Shown: positions 10,620 through 62,574 of the stretch, in pieces | Position numbering within the stretch: position 1 is the first letter of the stretch | Layout: every line of letters begins with the position of its first letter | Source of the DNA: Alphaproteobacteria bacterium | GTDB taxonomy: Bacteria > Pseudomonadota > Alphaproteobacteria > Rs-D84 | Direction of reading: 5' to 3' | NCBI GenBank assembly: GCA_017962125.1 | Contig: JAGCVZ010000011.1 | Location: 182,255 to 246,254, forward strand | DNA length: 64,000 nt | Notes under the pieces: model-generated | Seen by the model: only the letters and a program-made list of their open reading frames with translations | The model's database searches: none | Told to the model about the DNA's origin: nothing | Position numbers and translations under genes: made by a program

Positions 10620-10661
10620 AAAATCACATCTGAATAAAGCCTTTTGGATTTTGTTCCAAAC
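10620..10661. repeat. 42-bp perfect direct repeat, copy 1 (equals the last 11 codons plus stop of the M23 peptidase gene)
   Basis: AAAATCACATCTGAATAAAGCCTTTTGGATTTTGTTCCAAAC, identical to 11150..11191. Confidence 0.85.
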
Positions 10662-10664
10662 CTA

Positions 10665-11126
10665 CTATACTCTCACTTTTGATGACATTAATAACTGCCT
10701 ATTCATCGCTATTGCATCAGATATTAATTTATAGGTTACTGTCTTGCTTCTTTCATGCTTGCTATATAAATAAGGTGCCCTCATCCTTTTCTTTTTAACA
10801 TAGAAATATGTCACTGCTGGATTTTTTTCTTGTTTGGAATGTAAATACGCAATCTCATTAAAAATCTCTGAAAACACAGAATCTTCCACCAATTTGTGTC
10901 CAAAATTTGCAACAAAAAATTCACATTCTTTGTCGACTTTATTCCAACCAACATGAAGAATTATTTTTTTCGTGTTTGAATCAGTAATCGTGTAATACTT
11001 CCATCTTGCTTTGAACGGTCTAAGTTGTACATCCGGATTAAATATATTAAATTGAATTCCTTCTTCTGTTTTTTCAAAAAATTTGATTTCGTAATTTATA
11101 CCATTCAACAATTCTTCTAACGTCAT
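10665..11126 (-). CDS. hypothetical protein (153 aa, cytoplasmic), carried on the repeat-flanked insertion
   Basis: ATG at 11124-11126 with an AGGTG RBS. No signal peptide and no recognisable family. Confidence 0.5.
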   Translation of the reverse strand: MTLEELLNGINYEIKFFEKTEEGIQFNIFNPDVQLRPFKARWKYYTITDSNTKKIILHVGWNKVDKECEFFVANFGHKLVEDSVFSEIFNEIAYLHSKQEKNPAVTYFYVKKKRMRAPYLYSKHERSKTVTYKLISDAIAMNRQLLMSSKVRV

Positions 11127-11149: not shown

Positions 11150-11191
11150 AAAATCACATCTGAATAAAGCCTTTTGGATTTTGTTCCAAAC
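11150..11191. repeat. 42-bp perfect direct repeat, copy 2 (functional 3' end of the M23 peptidase gene)
   Basis: Identical to 10620..10661. Encodes ..LEQNPKGFIQM-stop on the minus strand. Confidence 0.85.
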
Positions 11192-12449
11192 TTTCTATGG
11201 CCCTATCCAAAGTCACACGATATTCCAAGAACTTCTTTTTATTCGCGGCATCTAAATTATCTATCGCCGGCAATTTTACCGTCATTGGATTTACATGCTT
11301 GCCGTCCTTGATAATTTCATAGTGCAAATGCGGTCCTGTTGAAAGTCCGGTTGACCCCGAATATCCAATAATCTGTCCCTGCTTTACTGCGGTACCAACT
11401 TTTACATTTTTCGCAAATTTTGACATGTGCGCATACAGCGTTTCAAAAGAACTATTATGACGAATCCTTACAAAGTTCCCATGCCCACGATTATAGCCAC
11501 GTGCAACGACACGCCCCGCCCCAGCAGATGGGATCGGGGTTCCGGTCGGTGCGCGGAAATCGACCCCCTTGTGCGCACGCGTGAACCCCAAGACGGGATG
11601 CTTGCGCCGCGTTGAAAAACTACTTGTTACTTTCGCGTTATTTATCGGTGTACGCTTCAACGATTTAATTGCGCCATTTCCATTTGGGTCATAATACCCG
11701 ACCGATTTATCAGATTTTTTAAATCGGTACATTTTTACATTTCCGCGTAACGCATCAAAGGAAACAACCGATACTGCACCATTATCGACCTTTACATTAT
11801 CATGATAGTTTTCTTCATACAGCACAGAAAATTTCTGTCCGGCACGCACATCGCGTTCAAAGTCCATTTCAAAAGCAAGCAAATCATAAACATCCGCCAA
11901 AATACCAGCCGGAATTCCGGCACGCATACCCGCAAGATAAAAGCTATCGCCATCCAAAATTTCCCCTTGTCGATAAACCAAGCGCGTATCGCGTTCAATA
12001 TCAATCGCGTTACAATTCCACACACCTGCATCATCACAAGTCAATTCCACACGCCGCCATGATCCTGGCAGCACAACAATCTTTGTTATTGGTGTTTCGG
12101 GGCCACCGTCACGCACAATTTCAATTTTATCCTTGTCCGCACGCAAACCCGTTATACCCGCCTTGGTCTTTAAAACATTTGCAATAGAATTTATATCTTT
12201 GCCACCAATACCATTCTCTGACAAAATCTTTGACAGTGTGTCCCCTGCTGCAACATTTATCACTGTTGTCTTATCGTCAACCACAGATTCTGTTACAAAA
12301 TCGGCATTAACAGATGACGGTCGCCCACGCAATACAGACCATAAAACAACCACAACCGCAAACGCGGCAACCAGTCCTGCAATCCATAAAACCGCGCGGA
12401 CAAACTTCCCAGAAGTAATAATATTTTTTGCTTTTTCCATGGCGTCCAT
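11154..12449 (-). CDS. M23 family metallopeptidase (membrane-anchored, LytM/NlpD-like)
   Basis: HKGVDF..GYSGSTGLSTGPHLHYE M23 catalytic motifs with an N-terminal TM helix. Start taken at the internal ATG 12449; the ORF extends to 12476. Confidence 0.8.
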   Translation of the reverse strand: MDAMEKAKNIITSGKFVRAVLWIAGLVAAFAVVVVLWSVLRGRPSSVNADFVTESVVDDKTTVINVAAGDTLSKILSENGIGGKDINSIANVLKTKAGITGLRADKDKIEIVRDGGPETPITKIVVLPGSWRRVELTCDDAGVWNCNAIDIERDTRLVYRQGEILDGDSFYLAGMRAGIPAGILADVYDLLAFEMDFERDVRAGQKFSVLYEENYHDNVKVDNGAVSVVSFDALRGNVKMYRFKKSDKSVGYYDPNGNGAIKSLKRTPINNAKVTSSFSTRRKHPVLGFTRAHKGVDFRAPTGTPIPSAGAGRVVARGYNRGHGNFVRIRHNSSFETLYAHMSKFAKNVKVGTAVKQGQIIGYSGSTGLSTGPHLHYEIIKDGKHVNPMTVKLPAIDNLDAANKKKFLEYRVTLDRAIESLEQNPKGFIQM

Positions 12450-13709: not shown

Positions 13710-13842
13710 TTTTGTATCCTTTTATCACACAAGAAAGACTAGCACAATTTTCCCCAATGTCAAATATTCCGTCATAACGTCCAATGTTATAAATTCGATG
13801 ATTGAAAAAATGTTCGTATTTCAGGTAAAAACGCTTTACAAG

Positions 13843-14016
13843 AAAGAATTGTCATTGCGGATTTAGTCCGCAATAGGGTCTATAAACCTGTGACGAATAA
13901 CACAAATTTATTACGAAATATTCGTCACAACTGTTTAGCCCTATGGCGGACCACGGGTCCCACGAAAAATGAAATTTTTCGTGGGTGACACCTGCCCGCC
14001 ATGACAATTCTTTTTT
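13843..14016. repeat. ~170-bp highly structured palindromic element (nested inverted repeats), possibly a structured RNA
   Basis: Outer IR GAATTGTCATTGCGG / CCGCCATGACAATTC encloses TGTGACGAATA..TATTCGTCACA and CCCACGAAAAAT-GAA-ATTTTTCGTGGG hairpins. Lies between two minus-strand genes. Confidence 0.5.
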
Positions 14017-14070
14017 AACAAAGGATTTTACCAAACATCAAACACATTTCATCACTAAATTCAACGTCAT

Positions 14071-31076: not shown

Positions 31077-31526
31077 TTACCACACGCCCCCAAACATCGC
31101 CGTCCGGAATGCCGTCGATGTTTGAACTTTTTCCCCACACTTATCCGCACAATTCAACGCGCATGTCGCGGTATCCGCGTAATCTTTGTGTGCCAACACA
31201 GAATAAGACACCAATGGTTTCCGCATCACACACCAACAATATGGTCCAGATTCTTCACCCCCAGTTATACCTACCGTTGTATCCACTGTATCGATTGCAT
31301 TACTCGCACCAACTTCGGCACATCCCGCATAGCCACTAACATACGGTGTATTCGAACTTGATGTGTTATAACCCATAGTTACCGTCCATGCGCCGTTATT
31401 CCCCGTCGTATGCGATACACCATTGTCGTATATTGATAAACTTGCTACATACGAACCCGTATGAACGCACATGCTCGTCGCATTCGCCATCATCGGCAAC
31501 ATTATCAACGCAAGTATTGTCTTCAC
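31077..31526 (-). CDS. small secreted cysteine-rich protein (trio member 2, paralog of member 1)
   Basis: GTG start overlapping the upstream stop (TAGTG), with a G-run RBS. Shares ..MCV..G.., CxC..P and ..FRTAMFGG with member 1. Confidence 0.5.
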   Translation of the reverse strand: MKTILALIMLPMMANATSMCVHTGSYVASLSIYDNGVSHTTGNNGAWTVTMGYNTSSSNTPYVSGYAGCAEVGASNAIDTVDTTVGITGGEESGPYCWCVMRKPLVSYSVLAHKDYADTATCALNCADKCGEKVQTSTAFRTAMFGGVW

Positions 31527-32341
31527 TATTCCCCCCCATAGTATGTTTGATTATTATATTTCAGATTTATCGTCCCATGCCGCGACCCGTTACCAAGGTT
31601 CACATAACATACATCCCCATTCGCAAACCTTATGTTAATAGACGGAATCGTCGCTCGTTCGCGATATAACGGTAACGCAACACCATTTGATGCGTGCAAT
31701 ACAGTCCCCCCAGATGTACATGCAAGTTGCGGTGTACAAAAGTCCGACATGTTACTAAACCCAAGATACACACGACAATAATCCGCATCTCCATATAATG
31801 AATAGTTCGTCGGGCATTCATCATTCGCATTTGCACGGACAAACGCCATACTGGGAACCGGCGCAAAAAAATTATCTGGACAATTTTCAACCGGATTAGA
31901 CGAACAACCTGATACCGTCGGATATTCCCCAGAACCACATGTTGTCGCACTGCTAACTATTAAATATGCAACATTGCGAGTCGTTTGTTGCGCCTGGTAT
32001 CCCGTATAGCATGTTCCTCCTAATGGTTGAACCACCATAGATGAATTTGTGGTCGCATCGTGAAACCCGGCCGCACAATTACCAACCGTATCGTTTACAC
32101 ATGTACCGTTTGACATATGTTGACCCGTTGGGCATACAATACCACTGGCCTGTGAGACGAATCGAAAATTCCCAATGTTACCTGTATATATTTCATAGCC
32201 GGAATAGCATCTCCCTCCACGTGGGGCAACGGTGCTGGTCGAACTTATCCCCGATGACACAGTCCACCCGTTACCACAGGTTTCATCCGCCATTACCGGT
32301 AACCCAAACACAAATACAAAAATGTAACAAACTTTCTTCAA
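31526..32341 (-). CDS. secreted cysteine-rich protein (271 aa, trio member 3)
   Basis: TTG start with a GAGGGG RBS. Signal peptide. 20 Cys in a T/S/G-rich sequence. Confidence 0.5.
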   Translation of the reverse strand: MKKVCYIFVFVFGLPVMADETCGNGWTVSSGISSTSTVAPRGGRCYSGYEIYTGNIGNFRFVSQASGIVCPTGQHMSNGTCVNDTVGNCAAGFHDATTNSSMVVQPLGGTCYTGYQAQQTTRNVAYLIVSSATTCGSGEYPTVSGCSSNPVENCPDNFFAPVPSMAFVRANANDECPTNYSLYGDADYCRVYLGFSNMSDFCTPQLACTSGGTVLHASNGVALPLYRERATIPSINIRFANGDVCYVNLGNGSRHGTINLKYNNQTYYGGE

Positions 32342-32388
32342 TTTGCCCCTCGCAATATAAAAAATTTAAACCGCCAAACGGAAATGAC

Positions 32389-32461
32389 GGTCGGGGTGTT
32401 CGAAAATCAAATCTGCTATGACTCCCGTAACATTTAGATATACGCCACAGGCACCCCGACC
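32389..32461. repeat. conserved 74-nt stem-loop element, copy B (GGTCGGGGTG...GATATAC...CACCCCGACC)
   Basis: Same terminal 10-bp complementary arms and spacing as 43896..43969. Loop contains GATATAC in both. Confidence 0.5.
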
Positions 32462-32672
32462 AATGATCGAGGCATAAAACATAATGACGGCACAAAACAT
32501 CGGAAAATAATAGATTACGACAATTCTGTGCCGGCAGATTTGGGCCTTCGACAGCCCCAAAACGAATTCCCATTCGCTTCGAAAAGTATGCTACTAAAAG
32601 GCACCACCAAAAGCAAGCAAAAACGGCGCCCTTGTTTTTTGAAAAAAATAAGTTATAATAATCCTACGTCAC

Positions 32673-33010: not shown

Positions 33011-33034
33011 CGGTTTAACCACTAACACTAATCA
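33011..33034 (-). repeat. solo stop-motif terminus (TGA-TTAGTGTTAGTGGTTA) of the IR-element family at the mscS stop
   Basis: On the minus strand the mscS stop TGA is the first triplet of TGATTAGTGTTAGTGGTTA. Confidence 0.5.
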
Positions 33035-33922
33035 CTTTTTAACATGCACATCCACTTGCGGAAAAGGAAAGTGAATCTTCTTTTTCGGCAGTTTATTGTA
33101 TATCGCTTCTAACATATCGCCTCGACTAGGGATCATATCGTTCGCTGATGTCCAATAGCGCACTGTAAGTACAACCGCACTATCCCCTAAATCAGAAACA
33201 AAAACATTTGGAGCTGGATCTTTTAAAACACGTTTATCCGCCTTGATTATCGCCAGTATCTCTTTACGCGCTACATCAACACTGTCGCCATAAGAAATTG
33301 CAACCGATAGTTCCGCGCGCCGCGTTTCATTTCCCGAAAGGTTTGTTATCTGACTATTGGACAGCGCACCGTTCGGCAACAAAACAACCTGGTTATCAAA
33401 AGTATGAATTTCAGTTGTAAAAATCATAATCTTTTTAACAATCCCAGTTTTGCCATCAGATGTTGAAATAATGTCACCAACCTTGAACGGTTTTAGAAAC
33501 ATAATGATAATTCCGCCGGCAAAATTCTGCATTGTTCCGGACAATGCCATACCAACCGCCAACGAAGCCGCACCAATAACAGCAACAATAGATGTCATTT
33601 GAACGCCAACGGTCGCAAGTGATATAATAACTACGAATATCCGCAAAAGTATATTCACAAACGAACCTAAAAAAGTAACAAGCGATGCATCTGATCCGCG
33701 CCGTTCTAACATACGTTTGAAAGATTTCGCAAGACGCTTTGCTATCCACATTCCACCCATCAAAACAACAAGTGCCGCAAGCAACTTTAAACTAAAATCC
33801 ACCGCCATGCTCGTCAGTGATGAAATCAAAGTTTTTAATTCCTCTGCGCTGGCTTGAACCTTTTCTGGCACAGTCTGTATCGCATCAACCGCATTACCAA
33901 CAACACTATCAACAACTTCCAT
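33032..33922 (-). CDS. mscS: small-conductance mechanosensitive channel MscS
   Basis: 296 aa. TM helices, then the conserved beta-domain region (..GDIISTSDGKTGIVKKIMIFTTEIHTFDNQVVLLPNGAL..). Confidence 0.8.
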   Translation of the reverse strand: MEVVDSVVGNAVDAIQTVPEKVQASAEELKTLISSLTSMAVDFSLKLLAALVVLMGGMWIAKRLAKSFKRMLERRGSDASLVTFLGSFVNILLRIFVVIISLATVGVQMTSIVAVIGAASLAVGMALSGTMQNFAGGIIIMFLKPFKVGDIISTSDGKTGIVKKIMIFTTEIHTFDNQVVLLPNGALSNSQITNLSGNETRRAELSVAISYGDSVDVARKEILAIIKADKRVLKDPAPNVFVSDLGDSAVVLTVRYWTSANDMIPSRGDMLEAIYNKLPKKKIHFPFPQVDVHVKK

Positions 33923-43782: not shown

Positions 43783-44022
43783 CATGTGGGAACTTGGTTT
43801 CGGGCTGTAGCAGGCCTTACCTATTCGGTGCGAAGCATCGTAATCCATTGTGATTTCTCATGCTTTTGCACCGTCAAAGATAAAACCCCGATTTTGGTCG
43901 GGGTGCCCTTGGGATATACATAAAACCCATGGGGTCATCTAATAGGTATGATTTGCTAACACCCCGACCGCTTGGTTTCCAAAGCGGTGTTTTTATTTTA
44001 CAGAAAAAAAAGGGGGAGGAAC
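43783..44022 (+). promoter_or_regulatory. structured 5' leader of the 44023 gene with an intrinsic terminator (putative attenuator / riboswitch-like)
   Basis: Candidate promoter TTGAAT-N17-ATAAAT at ~43748-43776. GGTCGGGGTG (43896-43905) can pair with either an upstream CCCCGA hairpin or with CACCCCGACC (43960-43969). The latter overlaps the 5' arm of the terminator ACCGCTTGG..CCAAAGCGGT + T-run (43967-43996), which sits 26 nt before a strong-RBS ATG. Confidence 0.35.
43896..43969. repeat. conserved 74-nt stem-loop element, copy A
   Basis: GGTCGGGGTG ... GATATAC ... CACCCCGACC, matching 32389..32461. Confidence 0.5.
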
Positions 44023-45510
44023 ATGAGAAAGTTCATGATATTCGGGTTGTTCGCGGCATTTATCGGTTTCGCATTCGCCGATGATATTGCCGACAGGCAA
44101 ACAGTAACATCACTAACGTATGTAAATGATGAACTTTCTGAAAAACAAGATATATTCGGTGCGCAATCAGGAACAAAAGTTGCAACTTTTACCAATACCG
44201 CCGGGGAAATCACACCACGCGAAGTAAAATCAGATTTAGGCAATAACACAAACGACACCGCATTACCAACGGTTAGTGCAGTGAATACAGGTTTAGATGC
44301 CACCCAAGATACACTTGGTGCAAACAAACATGCGGATTATGTTGCGACATATACAAATGCGCCGGGTGAATTAGGTGAAAAAGGAATCTATCAAGACAGT
44401 GGCACATACGCCGAACAACAAAATGCACTTGTTGATGCGGGAACATTTAATGCGGCATTACAAAACGGATTGGATAATGAATTTGTTTGTGCCGGCAATG
44501 ACCCCGCAACCGGTAATTGTTGGTTATGGACGACACATAATGGACCGGTGAACTTGTTTAATGGGACCATGTATAAAGGCGGTTTAAATCTCAACGTCTC
44601 GTTTGTAGCTTCCAATTTTAAAAAAATTACTTCGCCATATACCCCAAACTCTGACTTTTATGGTCCAACCTTTTATGCAAGGGTTAAACCAAATACGAAA
44701 TACATGGTAACCATGACCACGAGTGCAAGATATAAATACGTTGCCTATTATTCAAACGAAAGTGATATTACCGATAGAAGTCTGGCATTAGGATATGCCA
44801 ACGTATCTAATAACATGTTCACCACACCATCAGGTGCAAATTACGCTGTTATTAGTTTTACTAATGCCAACACCAATGAAATAACATGGTCAAATGTCGA
44901 GCTCTATGAAATACCTGATTCCATTCTGGTTCCTTATGCATATACCCCGTTGGAATATATAGAAGCAACAAACGAAACCACAACTATTAATTTAGGGCTT
45001 TCCGGAGATATGAATTTTCTGGTTGTAGCACAATCAAGTAGAATAAAAGGCGCTTCACAAACCTTGCTTTCATCTACAAATGGCGGAAACACTAGTACAT
45101 GGTTTGGCGAGGCTACAACTACGCATACTTGGGGCGTGAGCGGTGCTAGCGGCGCTCATGCTATCTATTCAACTGAAAAGATATCTGCTAATATCACATT
45201 TGATTCTTTTGGGGCAAGGGGGACGGTAAATGGGCAAACCATTGTGAGAAATAAAGATACAACACAACAAAATTGGTGTTTGTTTAGTACTTGTATTGGC
45301 TATTATCCGTTTTTAGGCAAAGTTTGGACATTGCGAGCATATCAAAATGGTGTGCTTGTAGGAAATTTTATCCCCGCAAAACGTAATAGCGATAATGAAA
45401 TTGGTATGTACGATACAGTATCGGGCACGTTTAAAACTAACACTGGCACCGGAACACTTATCGCCGGGCCAGAGATAAGTAATAATGTTTACCTGCCCCA
45501 GAATCAGTGA
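44023..45510 (+). CDS. secreted Cys-poor T/N/S/G-rich beta-rich protein (adhesin- or fibre-like)
   Basis: ATG at 44023 with RBS AGGGGGAGGA and signal peptide MRKFMIFGLFAAFIGFAFA. About 495 aa with only 3 Cys. C-terminal ..GMYDTVSGTFKTNTGTGTLIAG... Confidence 0.6.
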   Translation: MRKFMIFGLFAAFIGFAFADDIADRQTVTSLTYVNDELSEKQDIFGAQSGTKVATFTNTAGEITPREVKSDLGNNTNDTALPTVSAVNTGLDATQDTLGANKHADYVATYTNAPGELGEKGIYQDSGTYAEQQNALVDAGTFNAALQNGLDNEFVCAGNDPATGNCWLWTTHNGPVNLFNGTMYKGGLNLNVSFVASNFKKITSPYTPNSDFYGPTFYARVKPNTKYMVTMTTSARYKYVAYYSNESDITDRSLALGYANVSNNMFTTPSGANYAVISFTNANTNEITWSNVELYEIPDSILVPYAYTPLEYIEATNETTTINLGLSGDMNFLVVAQSSRIKGASQTLLSSTNGGNTSTWFGEATTTHTWGVSGASGAHAIYSTEKISANITFDSFGARGTVNGQTIVRNKDTTQQNWCLFSTCIGYYPFLGKVWTLRAYQNGVLVGNFIPAKRNSDNEIGMYDTVSGTFKTNTGTGTLIAGPEISNNVYLPQNQ

Positions 45511-45596
45511 TTAGTGGTTAGTATTTTGTCTTTTTGCGGAAACGCGGGGCATTTGCCCCGCGCATTAACACTTATCACTTACACTAACCACTATTA
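45507..45596. repeat. IR-bounded GC-hairpin element between convergent genes (stop-motif family)
   Basis: Left arm GTGATTAGTGGTTAGTA includes the TGA stop of the 44023 gene. Centre CGCGGGGC-ATTT-GCCCCGCG. Right arm ACTTACACTAACCACTATTA includes the TAA stop of the minus-strand ygiW-like gene. Confidence 0.6.
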
Positions 45597-45980
45597 TAAC
45601 TTCTTCATTGCGGACACATCAATTTCAATCATAGATGCACCATTTTTATCAACTTCGCCCCAAACTTCAACGTAATCTGATGGTGAAACACTCATACCAC
45701 CCCAATCTTCTTGGTCTATTTCCAAATTGATTGTTCCTGTTTCATCTTGGAAAATATATGAATTTTCACCATTTTGGCGCAACAAGTACCCGCGAACAAT
45801 AACCGGCGAATTATCAGACAAACCACGAACCTGTTCGATTGTCATAACTTCGGTCATTGTATTGTTATTCATATTATTATTCGCCATGGTGCCTGGTCCT
45901 GCAAAAGCGGCCGTTGACGCAACAATACCCAACGCCACCATCACAGATATTTTTTTGCATTCTTTATTTTTTTCCTTCAT
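45594..45980 (-). CDS. YgiW/YdeI BOF (bacterial OB-fold) family periplasmic protein
   Basis: ORF trimmed to the ATG at 45980 (MKEKNKECKKISVMVALGIVASTAAFAG). ..TIEQVRGLSDNSPVIVRGYLL..YIFQDETGTINLEID..YVEVWGEVDKN..IEIDV matches the BOF pattern. Confidence 0.7.
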   Translation of the reverse strand: MKEKNKECKKISVMVALGIVASTAAFAGPGTMANNNMNNNTMTEVMTIEQVRGLSDNSPVIVRGYLLRQNGENSYIFQDETGTINLEIDQEDWGGMSVSPSDYVEVWGEVDKNGASMIEIDVSAMKKL

Positions 45981-46068
45981 TTTTTCTTCCTTTGTTTGGT
46001 TTTTGTTATGTGCTTTTAACACATCAAAATTATACCGAAAAACAAGGCGGAAATACTCAGGAATGGTT

Positions 46069-46776
46069 TCAAAGGAATTTATGCAAATCGGCACCATTTT
46101 GATTCAGCCACCGTCGCGCGCGCTCAACCCCAAAACCGTATAGTTCACGAACCTGAGCCCAAAAAGCATCAGAATGATCCATATGTTTGACATGTGCCAA
46201 TTCATGCATCACGACATACCGCATAACATCAAACGGCGCAAACGCCAAACGCCACGAAAAAGAAACTGTTCCCGTCGTTGACCGTGACCCCCAACGCGAT
46301 ATCGTATCACGCAGGCAAATCCTTTTCGGCCAAAATTCACGTGGTGTCTTATGAATTAAATCTTTTATTTGTTTTAACAATTCAGATTTGACGAATAAAC
46401 GCACACGGTTTTCAAGCAATTTTTCATCACCACCAACAAATAGAGTCCACGTTCCATCGTCATTCAAAACAAACTTGTTCCCGCGTAAAGTTCCATCATA
46501 GATAACACAAACGCGCTTATCCAAGAAATCAAATATATTTCCGGATTTCAAATGTTCCTTGCGCGGGGCATTTGCAAAAAACCGCTCAAGCCACCGACGT
46601 TTTTGTTCAACAAATTTCATAACCGTTGAATTTGACGAAATTATCGGTCGTGTTGCATCAATCCTACGCACATCACCACCACGCGGTCGCAAAGTTATAT
46701 TCCGCACCCCAGTACGTATATTAATAATGACTGGTATTTTTTCCCCAGATGAAGTTACAAATTCAAATTCAGACAT
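46069..46776 (-). CDS. YgjP-like metal-dependent hydrolase (DUF45 / M48-related, HExxH)
   Basis: 235 aa. C-terminal ..YVVMHELAHVKHMDHSDAFWAQV.. is the typical DUF45 zinc-binding motif. Confidence 0.7.
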   Translation of the reverse strand: MSEFEFVTSSGEKIPVIINIRTGVRNITLRPRGGDVRRIDATRPIISSNSTVMKFVEQKRRWLERFFANAPRKEHLKSGNIFDFLDKRVCVIYDGTLRGNKFVLNDDGTWTLFVGGDEKLLENRVRLFVKSELLKQIKDLIHKTPREFWPKRICLRDTISRWGSRSTTGTVSFSWRLAFAPFDVMRYVVMHELAHVKHMDHSDAFWAQVRELYGFGVERARRWLNQNGADLHKFL

Positions 46777-53500: not shown

Positions 53501-53575
53501 GCCCCACAATATCATGTCCCACAAAAAATGTGAAAAACATTTTTTGTGGTAAATTCCCTGTGGGGCGTAAGCATA
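53501..53575 (-). terminator. nested-hairpin terminator after rplI
   Basis: ACGCCCCACA..[CCCACAAAAAATGT-GAAAAA-ACATTTTTTGTGG]..TGTGGGGCGT, seen on both strands. Confidence 0.45.
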
Positions 53576-57018: not shown

Positions 57019-58152
57019 ATGTTCAGATTAAATTTTCGAAGCAAACCAAATACATGGCCGGCATTCATAGACCTGTTTTCAAATTTGGTTATAATATTGA
57101 TATTTTTGCTAATCGTCTTTGTGTTTTTATGGACGACGACCAGCGTATTTAATAAACGCAACGGGGTTAAGACTATTGCGGAATTAAAACAAATGAACAT
57201 AGAACAAACTGCACAAATCAATCAAATGACCGCAGATAATGAAGAAGCCATGCGGTTATTAATTCAAGCACGTGCAGAATTGCTATCTAACCAAGACGAA
57301 TTGGACAGCAAGAATTTATCTATGATTGACATAATTACCGCATATGAAAACGAAGTATCCAAGGTAAAATCCAGTGATGATGCCGCCCGACGCGAAGTCG
57401 CAGAACTGCGCGAACAACTAGCACAAACAACTGCTATCAAAGAACAACTTGTCGAATTAGAACAACAACGCAGTATATTACAGGAAAAAATGCAAAAACA
57501 GGTAAATGTTCAACAAGAATTGATAGATGCCCAAGAATCAGAAATGGCGAAATATACGTCGGAATTAAAACGTCTAAATGCCGCGCTTACCAACGCAGAC
57601 AAAGAACTTTTAAGCCAACAGGTTAAATACATCGAAATGTCAAATAAACTAAACAAGGCGCTTGCCGACAAAGTTGCCGAATTGCAAGACATGCGCGAAT
57701 ACCAGTCTGAATTTTATCGTGCGGTAAAAATTGCACTTGGCGATACAGAATCAATAGAGGTTGATGGAGACCGCTTTATCGTGCAAAGCGACATACTATT
57801 TCCAACCGGCTCATACAAGTTATCAACCGAAGGTAAAAAACAATTACGCCTTGTATCAAATGTCATCAAAGAAATGGAAATGAAAATTCCATCAGACATT
57901 GAATGGATAATTCGTGTTGATGGTCATACTGACAATAAGCCTGTCGTTCCTGGCAATCGCGCATATTCAAATAACATGGAATTGTCATTACTGCGTGCGA
58001 CGGCGGTAGTGAACGAACTAGTGCGGGACGGCGTACAGAGCAAACGTCTTGTTCCTACGGGATTTGGCGATATGTACCCATTTGTTCCGAACACAACCAA
58101 GGCGAACATGCAGAAAAACCGTCGCATTGAATTGAAACTCACGAATAAATAG
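57019..58152 (+). CDS. MotB/OmpA-C-like peptidoglycan-binding protein with long coiled-coil linker
   Basis: 377 aa. N-terminal TM (LVIILIFLLIVFVFLW), an ~200-aa Q/E/L-rich coiled coil, and a C-terminal OmpA/MotB domain (RVDGHTDNKP..NMELSLLRATAVVNELV..NRRIEL). RBS GAGGGAG. Confidence 0.7.
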   Translation: MFRLNFRSKPNTWPAFIDLFSNLVIILIFLLIVFVFLWTTTSVFNKRNGVKTIAELKQMNIEQTAQINQMTADNEEAMRLLIQARAELLSNQDELDSKNLSMIDIITAYENEVSKVKSSDDAARREVAELREQLAQTTAIKEQLVELEQQRSILQEKMQKQVNVQQELIDAQESEMAKYTSELKRLNAALTNADKELLSQQVKYIEMSNKLNKALADKVAELQDMREYQSEFYRAVKIALGDTESIEVDGDRFIVQSDILFPTGSYKLSTEGKKQLRLVSNVIKEMEMKIPSDIEWIIRVDGHTDNKPVVPGNRAYSNNMELSLLRATAVVNELVRDGVQSKRLVPTGFGDMYPFVPNTTKANMQKNRRIELKLTNK

Positions 58153-58345
58153 TGGAAAGTGTTAGTGTAAGTGGTTAGTAATTTCTGGAATTATTTCATA
58201 ATTGTGAAATTATTCTGGAAAACAAAGTTCCCCTCTGGAAATCACCCACAAAAAATGTTGCACTTTTTTTGCGGGAACCGGTATAGGGGTGCCGCGGCAC
58301 CGCTTTGTGGTGACGGGCGGGGTGTCGCCCACTAACACTTTCCAC
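58150..58345. repeat. IR-bounded GC-rich element (MITE/REP-like), stop-motif family
   Basis: Perfect 16-bp terminal inverted repeats GTGGAAAGTGTTAGTG (58152-58167) and CACTAACACTTTCCAC (58330-58345). Left end begins with the motB-like stop TAG (TAGTGGAAAGTGTTAGTGTAAGTGGTTAGTAA). Core has GGTGCCGC-GGCACC and the AAAGTTCCCCTC block. Confidence 0.6.
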
Positions 58346-58407
58346 TCCAACACTTTTCCCTTTCCTTTTTTCATAACTTATGATAAAATGCATCAGCATA
58401 GAGAGAG

Positions 58408-60393
58408 ATGAAATTCTATTCGAGCCTTTTATTCGGTGTAATTTTTGCAATGACTGCTTTGCCGGCGGTCTCTAATGTTGCGACAACGGCTGGATCGAAC
58501 CTTACTGCATACAATGGCACCGGTGCCACGAATAATAACAAATGGAATAACCTTATGAACGGTCGCGCCGGTATGTCGCAAACCACGGCAGAGGCGAATT
58601 TTGGAAACTGTAATGCGATTGTGTTGCGTTGCGCGTCGCCAAAGTGCGCATCGGGTGGATGTACCGACATGAATGTTGCGGCGGCAATAGTTGCAGGGTG
58701 TGTAAATTCAAATCAAAATTGCAAGCAATATGGCGATGACTTAATCCAGTACATCACCGCCCAGGTTGTGGCGCAATCAACTGCCAAGGTGCAGCAACAA
58801 CAAAACGCCGTTGAAATAGCCAAGGCACAGGCCGATGCCCAGGCGTCCGCAGCAGCGCAGAGTAACGCCCAAATGCAACAAATGCAGCAGCAAATGGCGC
58901 AGATGCAACAGCAAATGGCGGAATCTATGAACGCGATGCAGGAGCAAATGGCGGCGGCGGCGGAATCACAAAACGCACAAATTCAAAGCGCATTAGAAGC
59001 CCAGACCACATCGGCAAATGCCTATGCAAACACCGGCGCAGCCCCGATCGAAACCGGCGCGGTGATTTCGGGACTCGAAGGCCTTGGGGTCGCGGAACAA
59101 CTGGCCGCGAAAAACGGCATCAGTGCGGAAATTTTGGTTCGCGAACAAATTGGCGGTCAAATTGAAACCGCGATTGAAGATGCAACACTTAAAATGAAAG
59201 AATTAAAACAGCAACTTGATGCAATCATTGAATACGCAGGTTGTGACCCATCGGTAACAAAATGTACCGGTCCAAAACGTGTTAAAAAATTCAAAGACAT
59301 GGCAAACGAATTTTTCGACCCGTACGAAGGTGTTCTTGAAAGTATGTATGATGCACTTATTACCGCAGTTACGGTCGGTATTGATGTGAGTGATGTTGTT
59401 ATGTTGCTAAGTGATTCATGTAATTTGTGGGGAAAATTCCTTTGTGACCCATGCTCTTTACCCCAAGCAAAAAAAGATGGACAAGCCACAGATCCATCTA
59501 CCAATGAAATTTGCTTCTGTAATAATTATAACGATACAACACACGAATACACAAATTGTTACTATCGCGTCAAGACAAGTTCATCAAATGATGGACGTGT
59601 TACCAGCAAACAAAGTCATTGCCGTATGGTCGGCCAAGTAGGCAACAAAGAAGATGTTTGGCACGAATGGATTGATCCAAATTCGGGCATAGGCGGCGCA
59701 ACCCAGGTCGCGTGCGCTTCTGATATTATCGGGGATATATCCATATTTAGTACCGTTATAAAACGCAAAAACACAACGATAGATATCGAAACATTACGCG
59801 ACCTTATAAACCAAGATTCTTGTACCTGCGGTGTTAACAAAGACGGCTCTTTCGATGTTTTAGAAGATTGTTGCGCCAGACGTTGCAATGTTGACCCACA
59901 TAACGATAAAGATAGAATGAGCCAATTACAAACAGCCGTCGACACAAAAAAGTGGCCAACAAAAAATGCGTGCTTTGCAGATGAAAAAAGTTTCAGAAAA
60001 TTAGACAACGGCGGTTCATCGAATAGTGAAATCGCCACAACAACCAACATAACCGTCACTGGGTTGAATACAAACATTAATTCTTGCGATGCATATCTAA
60101 CAGAAACAGCCTGCACATTTGTATCCGATAATTGCATATGGTTAAGCGCATCAAAAAAATGTATCAGTAAAACCATAGACACCAATTTAACATTTAACCA
60201 AAATTTGGTTAACAATGAAAACAACATCTTAAAAGGCACAAACACAACTATTGAAGCAAAGAACGGTATAATACAGGCACAATCTGGTTTTTCCGGTGTT
60301 GTTAACGGGGCATGCAGTTCTTACAATCTGTTTGAATGTCCGGAAAATGTATGCAAAAAAAATTACATAACAGGTAAATGTGTGAATAAATAA
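58408..60393 (+). CDS. large secreted cysteine-rich protein, divergent paralog P5
   Basis: 661 aa. Signal peptide, then CNAIVLRCASPKCASGGC (Cx6Cx4Cx4C), a Q/M/A-rich repeat (..QMQQMQQQMAQMQQQMAESMNAMQEQMAAAAE..), and a Cys-rich C-terminal half. RBS GAGAGAGA. Confidence 0.65.
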   Translation: MKFYSSLLFGVIFAMTALPAVSNVATTAGSNLTAYNGTGATNNNKWNNLMNGRAGMSQTTAEANFGNCNAIVLRCASPKCASGGCTDMNVAAAIVAGCVNSNQNCKQYGDDLIQYITAQVVAQSTAKVQQQQNAVEIAKAQADAQASAAAQSNAQMQQMQQQMAQMQQQMAESMNAMQEQMAAAAESQNAQIQSALEAQTTSANAYANTGAAPIETGAVISGLEGLGVAEQLAAKNGISAEILVREQIGGQIETAIEDATLKMKELKQQLDAIIEYAGCDPSVTKCTGPKRVKKFKDMANEFFDPYEGVLESMYDALITAVTVGIDVSDVVMLLSDSCNLWGKFLCDPCSLPQAKKDGQATDPSTNEICFCNNYNDTTHEYTNCYYRVKTSSSNDGRVTSKQSHCRMVGQVGNKEDVWHEWIDPNSGIGGATQVACASDIIGDISIFSTVIKRKNTTIDIETLRDLINQDSCTCGVNKDGSFDVLEDCCARRCNVDPHNDKDRMSQLQTAVDTKKWPTKNACFADEKSFRKLDNGGSSNSEIATTTNITVTGLNTNINSCDAYLTETACTFVSDNCIWLSASKKCISKTIDTNLTFNQNLVNNENNILKGTNTTIEAKNGIIQAQSGFSGVVNGACSSYNLFECPENVCKKNYITGKCVNK

Positions 60394-61159: not shown

Positions 61160-61404
61160 TTCCAAATAATTCCAGAGACTAAAGTTCCCCTCCTGCGGAG
61201 GGGTGCTGGGTAGCACCCGGCGGGGTGGTCTTTTACAAACAATTTGAAAATTCAAACGACCACCTCCCCCTTCGGGTACTCCTCCACAGGAGGAGAACTT
61301 TGCACTCTGCCCCCGCGGAGATACCGCTTTTCAACGGTATGACGATAAAAAACGGGCACAACCGCGCCCGTTTTCCATCAATCACTAACCACTAACACTC
61401 CCCA
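61160..61404. repeat. composite GC-rich structured element related to the 58150 element, ending in a stop-motif terminus at the pgk stop
   Basis: AATTCCAGAG, the AAAGTTCCCCTCC block, hairpins CCCCTCC-TGC-GGAGGGG, GGTGCT-GGGTA-GCACC, CTCCTCC-ACA-GGAGGAG and ATACCG-CTTTTCAA-CGGTAT. On the minus strand the end reads TAG-TGGGGAGTGTTAGTGGTTAGTGAT, where TAG is the pgk stop. Confidence 0.55.
61351..61375. terminator. bidirectional intrinsic terminator (AACGGGC..GCCCGTT flanked by A6/T4)
   Basis: Within the composite element. T-run follows on the minus strand after pgk. Confidence 0.45.
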
Positions 61405-62574
61405 CTAACACTCACGCAACACTTCTATCCCCGGCAATTCGCGACCTTCGATAAATTCCAAAAATGCGCCACCTCCGGTTGACACATACGTTATATCGCC
61501 CATCACGCCGCACGCATCCAAGGCCGCCACCGTATCGCCACCACCAACAATACTTTCAAGTTTTCCACTACGTGTATTATTGGCAATCGCACGCGCAATC
61601 GCGAACGATCCAAACGACCACGTCGGTTGCCACTCCGCCATACCAACCGTTCCGTTCCAAATTACAGTTGCGGCCTGGCCTATTTCAACCGCATCACGCT
61701 GCGCGGTTTTCGGTCCACCGTCAATAATCACATCGTCCGGCGCAATGTCCGCAATATCTTTATCAGTGCGTGGCGCATTAGGTTCAAAGACCGGTCCAAC
61801 ACCCTTGTCCAGTGGCACCAAGAAACGGCAGTTATTTTCGCGCGCGTATTCCATAATCGCAAGTGCGTTTTCTTTCTGGTCCGGTTCATACAGCGAATTT
61901 CCAACCGCATCACCCATTGCATAATTAAAAGTCGTTCCCAATGCACCGCCAACAATAATCGTGTCCGACAGTTTCGCCAATGCACGCAGCACGCCGATTT
62001 TCGTCGAAACCTTGGAACCTGCGACTATAGAAAGCACAGGGTGCTTTGGATTTTCCATAACGCGTGTCAGGTTATCTATCTCGCTCTCTAACAACAACCC
62101 AGCATAGGACGGCAAAAATTTTGTTACACCAACAGTACTTGCATGCGCGCGGTGCGAAACTGCAAACGCGTCATTCACAAAGACATCAAATCCCGCTGCT
62201 AACTTTTCGGCGAACGCCGGGGCGTTTTCTTCTTCACCTGCATAAAAACGCAAATTTTCAAGCAACACCACATCGCCATCTTGCATTTCCGCCATAAAAT
62301 CGCGGTTCAGACAATCATCGACAAACGGCAACTTCATATATTCCGCCACACCGCGCAACGAATATTTCATGTCACGCGTTCCCTTTGGCCGCCCCAGGTG
62401 AGAACAAATCGCAACCCGCGCGCCCGCATTGCGCAATGCCTCTATCGTAGGCATACTCCGTTCAATACGAAATCCTTCGGTAATTTTACCATCAACAATT
62501 TGCACATTAAAATCATCGCGCAACAACACATACTTGCCCCGCAAATCCAGCCCCTGAATTGTCCTAAGTTTCAT
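61405..62574 (-). CDS. pgk: phosphoglycerate kinase
   Basis: 389 aa. MKLRTIQGLDLRGKYVLLRDDFNV.. N-terminus. Hinge and C-terminal nucleotide-binding motifs present. Confidence 0.9.
   Translation of the reverse strand: MKLRTIQGLDLRGKYVLLRDDFNVQIVDGKITEGFRIERSMPTIEALRNAGARVAICSHLGRPKGTRDMKYSLRGVAEYMKLPFVDDCLNRDFMAEMQDGDVVLLENLRFYAGEEENAPAFAEKLAAGFDVFVNDAFAVSHRAHASTVGVTKFLPSYAGLLLESEIDNLTRVMENPKHPVLSIVAGSKVSTKIGVLRALAKLSDTIIVGGALGTTFNYAMGDAVGNSLYEPDQKENALAIMEYARENNCRFLVPLDKGVGPVFEPNAPRTDKDIADIAPDDVIIDGGPKTAQRDAVEIGQAATVIWNGTVGMAEWQPTWSFGSFAIARAIANNTRSGKLESIVGGGDTVAALDACGVMGDITYVSTGGGAFLEFIEGRELPGIEVLREC

What the first reader, a model, noticed from the sequence alone, without database searches (positions are those of the whole stretch)
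58150..58345. Inverted-repeat-bounded GC-rich elements whose termini carry stops in all three frames and supply the actual stop codon of five genes
The motif stop-TAGTG..GTTAGTGGTTAGT (or its close variants) directly overlaps the stop codon of five genes:
- the motB-like gene: aaa-TAG-TGGAAAGTGTTAGTGTAAGTGGTTAGTAA at 58150
- the 44023 gene: cag-TGA-TTAGTGGTTAGTA at 45508
- the ygiW-like gene: TAA-TAGTGGTTAGTGTAAGT on the minus strand, at 45596
- mscS: TGA-TTAGTGTTAGTGGTTA on the minus strand, at 33034
- pgk: TAG-TGGGGAGTGTTAGTGGTTAGTGAT on the minus strand, at 61407
The motif contains TAG, TGA or TAA in every frame. At 58150 the element is complete, with perfect 16-bp terminal inverted repeats (GTGGAAAGTGTTAGTG / CACTAACACTTTCCAC) flanking a GC-rich hairpin core. 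This looks like a MITE or REP-like mobile element that inserts into gene 3' ends and provides a frame-independent stop plus a terminator hairpin. It resembles other palindromic elements that insert at gene ends, but this family is not one I recognise.
Basis: seen in the sequence. Interest (0 to 1): 0.75.

Follow-up and report, generated by a model that had tools for sequence, protein, structure and literature searches.

The report
Polar TTAGTG-repeat arms at gene ends
A small-genome rumen alphaproteobacterium (Candidatus Enterousia group) carries a family of intergenic palindromic repeats whose arms are short arrays of the 6-7-base unit TTAGTG; the arrays begin exactly on the stop codons of genes without shortening the proteins, and the same kind of arm brackets an 'rRNA intervening-sequence protein' gene, which points to intervening-sequence-like selfish DNA rather than a classical transposon.

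Summary
Five genes in the window end in, or at, an array of T(T/A)AGTG(G) units, and 58151-58167 pairs perfectly (17 bp) with 58330-58346 around a GC-rich, strongly structured core.

- In about 1 Mb of related rumen-metagenome DNA I found 198 such arrays. Almost all are intergenic.
- They are about five times enriched at stop codons and almost always in sense orientation (57 abutting a stop against 10.6 expected; 1 antisense against 10.5 expected).
- Orthologues of four of the five genes keep the stop at the same codon whether or not an array is present. Nothing is truncated, so the array fuses with the native stop.
- The arms are not fixed inverted repeats. They are variable-number arrays (mode 5 units) that gain and lose whole units between strains.
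- About half of the arrays are unpaired. Some lie upstream of promoters, after a tRNA gene or between cistrons.
- No target-site duplication and no transposase was found.

The interiors are swappable modules: terminators, GC hairpins, and at one locus a 23S_rRNA_IVP gene. IVP genes in three other lineages are bracketed by inverted tandem 6-7-mer arrays in the same way, as in the Coxiella 23S intervening sequence.

Verdict: a new, unusual variant of the REP/MITE/IVS-like kind. Its function is unproven.

The parts
57019..58152 (+). OmpA-family gene. Its TAG stop (58150-58152) is the first three bases of the left arm.
   Evidence: ORF list. Pfam PF00691. Orthologues end at the same codon..TNK*.
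58150..58181 (+). Left arm, five units: TAGTG GAAAGTG TTAGTG TAAGTG GTTAGTA(A). It contains no C and has stops in all three frames.
58185..58218 (+). Module C: an AT-rich palindrome, CTGGAAT-N20-ATTCTGG. In this copy the stem is kept only through G-U pairs on the + strand. In related loci this module always lies next to GGTTAGTA / TACTAACC.
58224..58289 (+). Module B: AAAGTTCCCCTCTGGAAATCACCCACAAAAAATGTTGCAC... This is the best-conserved part of the composite element across non-orthologous copies.
   Evidence: (D16, I10)
58290..58329 (+). GC-rich hairpin module. It is related to the 'D' module CCGTCACC..GCGGTGCCGCG seen in L092, L026 and L082 in the opposite orientation.
58330..58357 (-). Right arm, four units read on the minus strand (AAAAGTG TTGGAGTG GAAAGTG TTAGTG). 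58330-58346 pairs perfectly with 58151-58167.
58381..58389 (+). TGATAAAAT, an extended -10-like box for the downstream gene (ATG at 58408). It is conserved in L003-L005 and marks the outer limit of the element. It is a boundary, not part of the element.
   Evidence: Sequence. Its role as a promoter is inferred.
45508..45523 (+). Short arm, TGA-TTAGTG-GTTAGTA, starting on the stop codon of the 512-aa hypothetical gene.
45544..45561 (.). Central GC hairpin GCGGGGCATTTGCCCCGC between the two convergent arms.
45565..45596 (-). Arm of four or more units starting at the TAA stop of the BOF (YgiW-like) gene.
33016..33034 (-). Arm, TGA-TTAGTG-TTAGTG-GTTA, starting on the stop of the MscS-family gene. 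It has no partner arm.
61379..61407 (-). Arm of four units after the TAG stop of pgk. A fifth AGTG lies in the last two codons, 61408-61413.
61347..61374 (-). Canonical intrinsic terminator (AAAACGGGCGCGGTTGTGCCCGTTTTTT on the minus strand) directly after the pgk arm.
61181..61301 (.). GC-rich palindromic module B' (AAAGTTCCCCTCCTGCGGAGGGG ... CTCCTCCACAGGAGGAGAACTT). It lies in the same intergenic region and is present at the same junction in L003 and L032.

Best explanation
The feature at 58150-58357 is one copy of a lineage-wide family of intergenic mosaic palindromic repeats in Candidatus Enterousia-type Alphaproteobacteria (order Rs-D84, genomes of about 0.9 Mb).

Shown:
- Arms. They are polar arrays, most often 5 units and about 32 nt, of the unit T(T/A)AGTG(G). 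The arrays read TTAGTG going into the intergenic region from either side. They behave like minisatellites, with whole-unit gain and loss between strains.
- Interior. It is a swappable set of modules: intrinsic terminators, several GC-rich hairpin families that nest into each other or into the arrays after TTAGT, an AT-rich palindrome, and at one locus a 23S_rRNA_IVP (S23p) gene.
- Relation to stop codons. The arrays abut or overlap native stop codons without changing protein length.

Inferred:
- Why the arrays reach the stop codon. Every unit carries TAG or TAA, so an array can extend up to, and fuse with, a gene's native stop codon without altering the protein. That would explain why so many arrays begin exactly on a stop codon and why those genes use TAG.
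- Origin. The ORF-less copies are miniature derivatives of an IVS-like element, that is, an IVP gene enclosed by inverted tandem-repeat arms.
- Effect in transcripts. The arrays give a C-free 3' UTR pad with back-up stops. Where a partner arm is present they give a 13-35 bp stem closing the whole intergenic region. Such a stem would act as a terminator extension, a transcript-end stabiliser, or a double-strand RNase processing site that insulates neighbouring transcription units.
For: Organism and family:
- Close relatives are MAGs named Ca. Enterousia or uncultured Alphaproteobacteria; genome sizes come from PMC12306168.
- A metagenome scan gave 110 stretches carrying the seed pattern.
- There are 198 distinct arrays and only 3 lie inside called genes.

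Association with stop codons:
- 57 arrays abut a stop in sense orientation within 5 nt, against 10.6 +/- 2.7 expected if position and strand were random within the same intergenic region. Antisense: 1 against 10.5.
- 92 arrays that were not selected by the search pattern show the same picture.
- The commonest register is the stop being the TAG of the first TAGTG (28 of 91). TAG is used by 54% of array-associated genes against 19% overall, Fisher p = 1e-15.
- The stop position is ancestral in orthologues.

Array behaviour:
- Indels between strains are whole units of 6, 7, 12 and 26 nt.
- Unit number peaks at 5: counts of 15, 20, 46, 11 and 5 for 3 to 7 units.

Mobility or dispersal:
- The composite element has 81-89% identical copies at non-orthologous loci and in both orientations.
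- D modules are clean insertions after TTAGT in 7 of 8 cases.
- A 31-nt GC insert lies in a terminator loop in one strain and not in its relative.

Link to IVP:
- At the rbfA-lepA junction the arms are conserved in every species sampled (L062, L021/L012, L039, L082, L026, and L120, L122, L125, L132) while the interior is an IVP gene, GC modules, or a single hairpin.
- IVP genes at other loci are also bracketed by inverted tandem 6-7-mer arrays that start at the upstream stop codon. This holds in a Rickettsiales MAG, Paludibacter and Flavobacterium, with arm duplex energies of -41 to -49 kcal/mol.
- The Coxiella 23S IVS has a 28-bp terminal stem, an S23p ORF, variable-number heptamer repeats and RNase III excision (PMC4990558).
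Against: - No target-site duplication is visible at 58150 or elsewhere.
- No transposase or recombinase lies between arm pairs.
- The two arms of a pair are not more complementary than arms from different loci: duplex energy -30.1 against -30.5 kcal/mol, longest perfect match 12.9 against 13.2 nt. Rare units are not mirrored more than chance, 4 against 2.4, P = 0.2, and unit numbers on the two arms are uncorrelated. Selection for a specific stem is therefore not shown outside the IVP cassettes and this window's copy.
- About 45% of arrays are single.
- 45 kb more of the same genome holds no array, so the family is not dense in this strain.
- No RNase III gene was seen in the 1.05 Mb sampled.
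- There are no expression data, so every functional statement is inference.
- Gene ends in the metagenome loci come from my own simple gene caller.
Confidence: 0.55

Rival explanations
1. A MITE with defined terminal inverted repeats transposes into the 3' ends of genes. It replaces the native end and supplies a new, frame-independent stop plus a terminator.
For: - The stop codon lies inside the motif at five genes.
- In some metagenome genes the reading frame runs through one or two units before stopping, with offsets of -5 to -14 in 17 of 91 cases.
- Dispersed copies of the composite element exist.
Against: - Orthologues of four of the five genes stop at the same codon with or without arrays.
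- No duplications flank the element.
- Arm sequence and length vary from copy to copy and between strains.
- Many arrays lie far from any gene end.
- No parent IS was found.
Confidence: 0.08
2. The arrays are selected cis-elements, not selfish DNA. They would be binding arrays for an oligomeric RNA- or DNA-binding protein, for instance the pentameric IVP/S23p protein, or pads placed before terminators. On this view their position at gene ends is their function.
For: - Orientation relative to the gene is almost absolute.
- Arrays persist at orthologous junctions across species with 57-95% protein identity while the units turn over.
- The length distribution peaks sharply at 5 units instead of decaying.
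- C is nearly absent, 42 of 5336 nt.
- Arrays persist in genomes that are about 90% coding (PMC12306168).
- Arrays and IVP genes occur together in four lineages.
Against: - Only about 5-8% of genes in this genome have an array. Their products are unrelated: OmpA-like, pgk, MscS, BOF and a hypothetical protein.
- Arrays are lost in some orthologues with no visible replacement (L005).
- Arrays also sit upstream of promoters and after a tRNA gene.
- No binding protein has been identified.
Confidence: 0.17
3. The arrays are landing pads. TTAGT^G would be the insertion target of small GC-rich hairpin elements (IS200/IS605-like, or REP/RAYT-like chemistry with no duplication). On this view arrays matter only because insertions there are harmless.
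For: - D modules sit as clean insertions after TTAGT in 7 of 8 cases. Removing them restores a perfect array.
- Another GC module follows the TAGT of the mscS stop in L099.
- Interiors are swapped within conserved arms at rbfA-lepA.
- GC modules nest into hairpin loops.
Against: - The sample is small.
- No Y1 or RAYT transposase was looked for genome-wide or seen.
- The model does not explain the inverted arrangement of arms or their polarity relative to genes.
Confidence: 0.12
4. The arrays are neutral minisatellites that arise by slippage next to TAG stop codons. There is no element and no function.
For: - Whole-unit indels occur between strains.
- Stops in all three frames are only slightly more frequent than in random concatenations of the observed units: 63 against 47% for 4 units, 83 against 67% for 5 units.
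Against: - The same units occur in inverted partner arms, around shared modules and around IVP genes in distant lineages.
- The length distribution is not geometric.
- The sense-only polarity at stops is not expected from slippage alone.
Confidence: 0.08

Closest known systems
23S rRNA intervening sequences carrying an S23p/IVP ORF (e.g. Coxiella burnetii IVS; PMC4990558)
   Same: - Terminal inverted repeats form a long stem.
- Variable-number tandem heptamer repeats lie at the stem.
- A four-helix-bundle IVP gene can sit in the loop.
- The overall size is similar. In this lineage the rbfA-lepA cassette has 350-370 nt between the arms; the Coxiella IVS is 428-444 nt in total.
   Different: - Here the elements lie between protein-coding genes, not in an rRNA helix.
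- Most copies, including the one in the window, have no ORF.
- Arms are often unpaired.
- RNase III excision is untested and no rnc gene was seen in the sample.
Correia / NEMIS elements of Neisseria
   Same: - Small intergenic palindromic repeats with stops in all frames.
- Co-transcribed with neighbouring genes.
- Their inverted repeats form stems that RNase III cuts, and they can act as promoters or terminators (PMC2229807, PMC10969869).
- As I recall it, the Correia end (TATAGTGGATTAA...) even resembles TAGTGGTTAG. That is from memory, not tested.
   Different: - Correia has a fixed 26-bp inverted repeat, a TA duplication, a defined length of about 100-155 bp and an IHF site.
- Here the arms are variable tandem arrays, no duplication is seen, and spacers range from 27 to 507 nt.
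REP / BIME mosaics of enterobacteria (REPIN/RAYT systems)
   Same: - Extragenic.
- Usually at 3' ends of genes and transcribed with them.
- Mosaics of several palindromic and non-palindromic motifs.
- Other small elements nest into them.
This comparison rests on established knowledge.
   Different: - No REP-like single imperfect palindrome forms the core.
- The arms are tandem 6-7-mers with strict polarity and overlap stop codons.
- A RAYT gene was not sought genome-wide.
Pneumococcal BOX / RUP / SPRITE clusters
   Same: - Several small repeat families cluster in intergenic regions and insert into one another.
- One of them (SPRITE) is terminator-like.
- RUP has stops in all six frames.
   Different: - Those families have defined consensus sequences.
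- RUP has IS630-type ends with TA targets.
- None is built from stop-codon-anchored unit arrays.

Membership tests
MITE (miniature inverted-repeat transposable element) | Terminal inverted repeats | tested here: met
   17-bp perfect repeat, 58151-58167 / 58330-58346. 52 arm pairs in related loci. However, the arms are variable arrays rather than one conserved sequence.
MITE (miniature inverted-repeat transposable element) | Target-site duplication flanking the element | tested here: not met
   The flanks of the 58150 element (..AATAAA | .. | CCAACAC..) share no direct repeat. No consistent dinucleotide flanks the outer units.
MITE (miniature inverted-repeat transposable element) | Many similar copies at unrelated loci | tested here: met
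   81-89% identical copies in L112, L058 and L016, with different flanking genes and in both orientations.
MITE (miniature inverted-repeat transposable element) | A parent insertion sequence with the same ends and a transposase | tested here: inconclusive
   Only small ORFs (IVP and hypotheticals) lie between arm pairs spaced 300-3000 nt apart in about 0.9 Mb. Complete genomes were not available.
23S rRNA intervening sequence (IVS) | Located in a helix of 23S rRNA | tested here: not met
   All copies lie between protein or tRNA genes. No rRNA signature was found in any locus held. The 23S gene of this lineage could not be fetched.
23S rRNA intervening sequence (IVS) | Complementary termini forming a long stem, with tandem heptamer repeats of variable number | tested here: met
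   Stems of -41 to -49 kcal/mol around IVP genes. Unit-number differences between strains. The Coxiella description is in PMC4990558.
23S rRNA intervening sequence (IVS) | S23p / 23S_rRNA_IVP ORF in the loop (present in some IVSs) | tested here: met
   PF05635, E = 2e-36, for the ORF between the arms at rbfA-lepA. The window's own element has no such ORF.
23S rRNA intervening sequence (IVS) | Excision by RNase III | not testable with these tools
   Needs RNA data or an enzyme assay. No rnc homologue was found in the 1.05 Mb sampled, which is inconclusive.
REP / BIME | Extragenic mosaics of palindromic units at gene 3' ends | tested here: met
REP / BIME | Associated RAYT (Y1 transposase) gene | not tested
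   No complete genome was available, and no search was made beyond ORFs between arm pairs.
Correia / NEMIS | Fixed 26-bp inverted repeats, TA duplication, defined length classes | tested here: not met
   Arms vary from 3 to 13 units. Spacers range from 27 to 507 nt. There is no TA duplication.
Intrinsic (Rho-independent) terminator | GC-rich hairpin followed by a U run | tested here: inconclusive
   Present after the pgk arm (61347-61374) and after many arrays in related loci. The 58150 element has only one weak consensus match.
Integron attC site | Inverse core RYYYAAC on the left and core GTTRRRY on the right | tested here: not met
   Here the order is GTTAGTG ... CACTAAC on either strand, the reverse of attC, and GTTAGTG does not fit GTTRRRY (sequence; attC consensus from established knowledge).
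Minisatellite / VNTR | Copy number of the unit differs between close strains | tested here: met
   Indels of 6, 7, 12 and 26 nt that are exact multiples of units, in pairs of contigs 94-98.5% identical.

The most novel reading that the evidence does not exclude
IVS-like elements are not confined to rRNA. On this reading, cassettes made of an S23p/IVP gene enclosed by inverted arrays of 6-7-nt tandem repeats sit inside ordinary operons in several phyla: rbfA-lepA and dxs/rnhA in Alphaproteobacteria, and sdhA-sdhB and hemF-hemB in Bacteroidota. In Enterousia their ORF-less arms would have spread to roughly 5-10% of gene ends.

The arrays, typically five units, would be the recognition sites of the pentameric four-helix-bundle IVP protein and/or of a double-strand RNase. 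The family would then form a genome-wide layer of 3'-end processing or insulation, and the long-unexplained S23p family would gain a ligand.
Probability: 0.15. Interest if true: 0.8.

Novelty: new variant of a known kind. Interest (0 to 1): 0.55.

Why it matters
- Genome economy. These genomes are under 1 Mb and about 90% coding, yet they keep GC-rich repeat mosaics of 100-400 bp at particular gene junctions across species. Either the repeats do something (termination, insulation, RNA processing) or they renew themselves very efficiently. Both possibilities bear on how reduced genomes handle selfish DNA.
- Annotation. The stop-codon-anchored, strictly sense-oriented unit arrays are a clean, testable case of non-coding repeats fusing with stop codons without cost to the protein. 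They also show that a stop codon lying inside a repeat does not mean the gene was truncated.
- IVP/S23p genes. The link to IVP genes bracketed by inverted tandem-repeat arms in several phyla gives a concrete handle on two old open questions: what intervening sequences are, and what S23p proteins do.

Tried and rejected
- Known RNA families. Rfam found only two tRNAs in the window at gathering thresholds. It found nothing at E <= 1 on 58100-58420 and nothing in the 2-kb insert of L006.
- Literature. A search for the unit strings returned only unrelated eukaryotic papers. Papers on Enterousia do not mention repeats.
- Selection for three-frame stops. The frequency is barely above that of random concatenations of the observed units, so I do not claim it.
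- Arm co-evolution or pairing. Cognate against non-cognate duplex energy, longest perfect match, mirrored rare units and unit-number correlation are all null.
- Consensus structure of four copies of the composite element. It is conserved but shows almost no covariation: 1 compensatory pair in 52. The G-U pairs favour one strand, yet the element is inverted relative to its flanking genes in L112 and L016, so a fixed sense-strand RNA function is not supported.
- Transposase between arm pairs: none found.
- rRNA context: no rRNA in any locus.
- RNase III gene: not found in the sample.
- Ideas considered from the sequence and dropped for lack of fit. These were DNA uptake sequences (the units are degenerate tandem arrays, not one fixed word), integron attC (wrong order of core sites), a sigma-54 promoter in module C/B (spacing wrong), Rho rut sites on the antisense (few YC dinucleotides) and the consensus elemental pause (no G at -10).
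- Same-genome density. 45 kb more of the same genome holds no array, which lowers the density estimate.
Full report
**1. What is in the window**

In each, the stop codon is followed at once, on the sense strand, by units of the form N(1-3)AGTG.

| Gene | Coordinates | Stop | Pfam |
|---|---|---|---|
| OmpA-family | 57019-58152 (+) | TAG | PF00691 |
| 512-aa hypothetical | 43972-45510 (+) | TGA | none |
| BOF / YgiW-like | 45594-46097 (-) | TAA | PF04076 |
| MscS-family | 33032-33922 (-) | TGA | MS_channel domains |
| pgk | 61405-62574 (-) | TAG | not scanned; called as PF00162 (PGK) in L001 |

- Chains of at least three AGTG spaced 5-8 nt occur five times in the window, against 0.17 in shuffles.
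- TRF calls two of the arrays on its own.
- At 58150 the left array (58150-58181) and an inverted array (58330-58357) include a perfect 17-bp complement. They enclose 148 nt (58182-58329) that fold into three hairpins; the 221-nt region gives z = -6.5.
- The convergent junction 45505-45600 folds equally well on both strands.
- The other roughly 54 genes of the window end in plain sequence or in ordinary terminators.

**2. Whose genome it is**

- The OmpA-like protein is encoded identically on rumen-metagenome contigs.
- At 75-83% identity it is encoded in MAGs labelled Candidatus Enterousia or uncultured Alphaproteobacteria.
- The window's own genome is an NCBI MAG with locus tags J6Y07.
- Enterousia belongs to order Rs-D84. 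Genomes are 0.75-1.0 Mb and 81-94% coding (PMC12306168).

**3. Orthologues decide the 'supplies the stop' question**

| Gene | Protein end | Loci compared | With or without an array |
|---|---|---|---|
| OmpA-like | ..TNK* | window, L003, L004, L005, L006, L032, L029 | L003, L004, L032: TAG plus an array of different unit order. L005: TAA, no array. L029: TAA, an ordinary terminator, and an array only further downstream. |
| pgk | ..REC* (..EEC* in L005) | window, L003, L004, L005, L032 | Array length runs from 0 to 5 units. L006 is one codon shorter. |
| mscS | ..VHVKK* | L099 | TAG followed by GC-rich modules, no array. |
| BOF | ..KKL* | L015 | Only a degenerate array. |

The stop position is therefore ancestral. 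The array begins on it and does not create it.

The interior of the OmpA-like intergenic region is completely different between species, while arrays persist at both of its ends.

**4. The family at large**

One metagenome scan with an 18-mer made of three units returned 110 stretches, mostly from rumen samples. With a simple coding-potential gene caller I found 198 distinct arrays in about 0.9 Mb.

- Position:
  - Only 3 arrays lie inside called genes.
  - 115 have a same-strand gene 3' end on their 5' side, and 69 of these lie within 5 nt of the stop.
  - 52 lie 6-250 nt upstream of a gene start that points the other way. An array therefore always reads TTAGTG away from the nearest gene.
- Enrichment. 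If position and strand were random within each array's own intergenic region, 10.6 +/- 2.7 sense-abutting cases would be expected; 57 are observed. For antisense, 10.5 are expected and 1 is observed.
- Control for search bias. The 92 arrays that do not contain the search pattern behave the same way.
- Units. GTTAGTG, TTAGTG and TAAGTG make up 70-79% of units. 90-94% of units hold a stop triplet. C is almost absent.
- Register with the stop:
  - The commonest register is stop = TAG of the first TAGTG.
  - TAG is used by 54% of these genes against 19% overall, p = 1e-15.
- Length. Unit number peaks at five.
- Other contexts:
  - Arrays occur in divergent promoter regions and after a tRNA gene.
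  - They occur as short spacers between cistrons.
  - Translation alone therefore cannot be their reason for existing.

**5. The arms are minisatellites, not fixed ends**

- Contigs 94-98.5% identical differ inside arrays by exact multiples of units: 6, 7, 12 and 26 nt.
- Of 52 pairs (+ array, then - array, no gene between; spacer 27-507 nt, median 79), the two arms are no more complementary to each other than to arms of other loci.
- Rare units are not mirrored more than chance, and unit numbers on the two arms are uncorrelated.
- About 45% of arrays have no partner.
- The window's 17-bp perfect pairing, with the rare unit GAAAGTG on both sides, is thus above average for the family.
- Any + array can still pair with any - array at about -30 kcal/mol, simply because the units are shared.

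**6. The interiors are modular**

Recurrent modules:
- Ordinary terminators, for example CGGTTGCGAATGCAACCG plus a T run, seen at several loci and in several species.
- Module C, CTGGAAT-N20-ATTCCAG, always flanked by GGTTAGTA and TACTAACC.
- Module B, GTTCCCCTCTGGAAATCACCCACAAAAAATGTTGCAC...
- Module B', bounded by AAGTTCYCCTCC...GGAGGRGAACTT.
- Module D, CCGTCAC...GCGACGG. In 7 of 8 cases it sits directly after TTAGT, and removing it restores a perfect array.

Evidence that modules move:
- One strain has a 31-nt GC insert in the loop of a terminator hairpin that its relative lacks.
- The whole composite of the window (array, C, B, GC hairpin, array) recurs at 81-89% identity in L112, L058 and L016. 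These copies lie next to different genes, and in L112 and L016 the element is inverted relative to the flanking genes.
- The interior is better conserved than the arms.
- I saw no target-site duplication and no transposase.

**7. The link to intervening-sequence proteins**

- At the rbfA-lepA junction the arms are present in every species sampled, but the interior varies:
  - A 121-131-aa ORF of family 23S_rRNA_IVP (PF05635, E = 2e-36) in L062, L021/L012, L039, L120, L122, L125 and L132.
  - GC modules in L082.
  - A single D hairpin in L026.
- The IVP stop codon and its last residues (..LTTNTNH*) are encoded by the antisense array.
- A 57%-identical IVP in a 'Rickettsiales' MAG lies at another locus (dxs | rnhA), between arms of CTAGTG/TTAGTG units.
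- IVP genes of Paludibacter (sdhA-IVP-sdhB) and of a Flavobacterium MAG (hemF-IVP-hemB) are also bracketed by inverted arrays of tandem heptamers:
  - The units are AGTTACG / TGTAACT in Paludibacter and NTTAGCN in Flavobacterium.
  - The arms match at 19 of 21 and 28 of 31 positions.
  - In both, the left arm starts at the upstream stop codon.
  - Arm duplex energies are -41 to -49 kcal/mol.
- The Coxiella 23S rRNA intervening sequence has the same ingredients: a 28-bp terminal stem, an S23p ORF and heptamer repeats of variable number. RNase III excises it (PMC4990558).
- I found no paper in the held library that describes such cassettes outside rRNA.

**8. Most likely explanation**

Shown: the arrays are the arms of a lineage-specific mosaic repeat family. 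They are polar, unit-variable, and fused to native stop codons without changing proteins. The same arms enclose the IVP gene.

Inferred, in three steps:
- Origin. The ORF-less copies are miniature derivatives of the IVS-like IVP cassette. L082 and L026 show such a derivative arising in place.
- Position. The arrays reach the stop codon because every unit contains TAG or TAA. Slippage or conversion can therefore extend the array until purifying selection on the protein stops it. This fits TAA in orthologues without arrays and TAG in those with them.
- Effect. In RNA the arrays provide back-up stops and a C-free spacer before terminators. Where they are paired they provide long stems that could extend terminators, protect 3' ends or be cut by a double-strand RNase, as shown for Correia elements and for IVSs.

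The functional part is weak. There are no expression data, arm co-evolution is not detectable in general, and no rnc gene was seen in the sample.

**9. Rivals**

- A purely functional binding array, possibly for the pentameric IVP protein, is attractive because of the five-unit mode, the strict polarity and the long persistence. It is untested.
- A landing-pad role for GC hairpin elements is supported by the clean TTAGT^ insertions, but it does not explain the polarity.
- Pure slippage does not explain the inverted partners, the shared modules or the IVP association.

**10. Caveats**

- The metagenome loci were chosen by the motif. Density estimates from them (one array per about 4 kb) are inflated.
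- The window plus 45 kb more of the same genome gives about 6 arrays per 109 kb.
- Gene ends outside the window rest on my own caller.
- The E. coli RNase III query and the Correia end sequence were written from memory.

Noticed in passing
L130 1395-1950 (Paludibacter-type contig); L134 1095-1625 (Flavobacterium MAG); L128 2900-3425 ('Rickettsiales' MAG): 23S_rRNA_IVP (S23p, four-helix-bundle) genes sit inside ordinary operons or gene junctions: sdhA-sdhB, hemF-hemB, dxs|rnhA. Each is bracketed by inverted arrays of tandem 6-7-mers (AGTTACG, NTTAGCN, CTAGTG). In the two operon cases (L130, L134) the left arm starts at the upstream stop codon; in all three the right arm ends 5-17 nt before the next start codon. 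This looks like a general architecture that I did not find described.
   Followed up: partly
L062 3455-3913; L082 1153-1424; L026 1700-1781: The rbfA-lepA junction keeps its TTAGTG arms in every species sampled, but the interior is an IVP gene, GC-rich modules or a single hairpin. The last residues and the stop of IVP are encoded by the antisense array (..LTTNTNH*).
   Followed up: yes
L122 5194-6201; L125 5653-6366; L132 6318-6390: A phage-integrase-like gene (Arm-DNA-bind_3, Phage_int_M) lies 0-1.1 kb downstream of lepA (about 2-3 kb from the IVP cassette) in several species. Whether it has anything to do with the repeats is unknown.
   Followed up: no
window 43894-43970 and 32388-32463 (opposite strands): Two genes (43972-45510 + and 31526-32341 -) share a conserved leader of about 75 nt. 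A 10-bp stem GGTCGGGGTG...CACCCCGACC encloses about 55 nt. There is no Rfam match. It may be a shared regulatory RNA or promoter region.
   Followed up: partly
window 13824-14032: A 37-nt inverted repeat (78% complementary) encloses 135 nt of further hairpins, in a 360-nt stretch with no ORF between 13709 and 14071. There is no Rfam match. It may be an unannotated RNA.
   Followed up: no
window 10620-10668 and 11150-11198: A 49-nt direct repeat, 96% identical, flanks the small ORF 10665-11126.
   Followed up: no
window 43972-45510; L117 10001-11512; L118 1564-3087; L119 10001-11140; L006 11852-12973: The 512-aa hypothetical protein belongs to a fast-evolving paralogous family with several copies in the same genome (54-92% identity, partly over the C-terminal third only). 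Its C terminus ends NVY(L/I)PQNQ in the two copies read (window, L006). In L006 an extra 373-aa copy is inserted between the OmpA-like gene and its neighbour.
   Followed up: partly
window 53536-53565: An inverted partial copy (80% complementary over 30 nt) of module B (CCCCTCTGGAAATCACCCACAAAAAATGTT) lies between the L9 gene and the next gene. No TTAGTG arrays are nearby.
   Followed up: no
L111 about 1950-2230 on the + strand (minus-strand offsets 700, 840, 980): Three tandem copies of a unit of about 140 nt, each containing a five-unit TTAGTG array followed by the same sequence of about 100 nt. This is a higher-order repeat of the array.
   Followed up: no
L038 / L093 versus L096 (terminator after the 245-codon gene): A 31-nt GC-rich insertion sits in the loop of the terminator hairpin GCGGGGCAT^TGCCCCGC in two contigs and is absent in a 97%-identical one. 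GC modules appear to target hairpin loops.
   Followed up: partly
L117-L119 (45 kb of the same genome as the window): There is not a single array of three or more units here. The family is patchy within this genome.
   Followed up: yes
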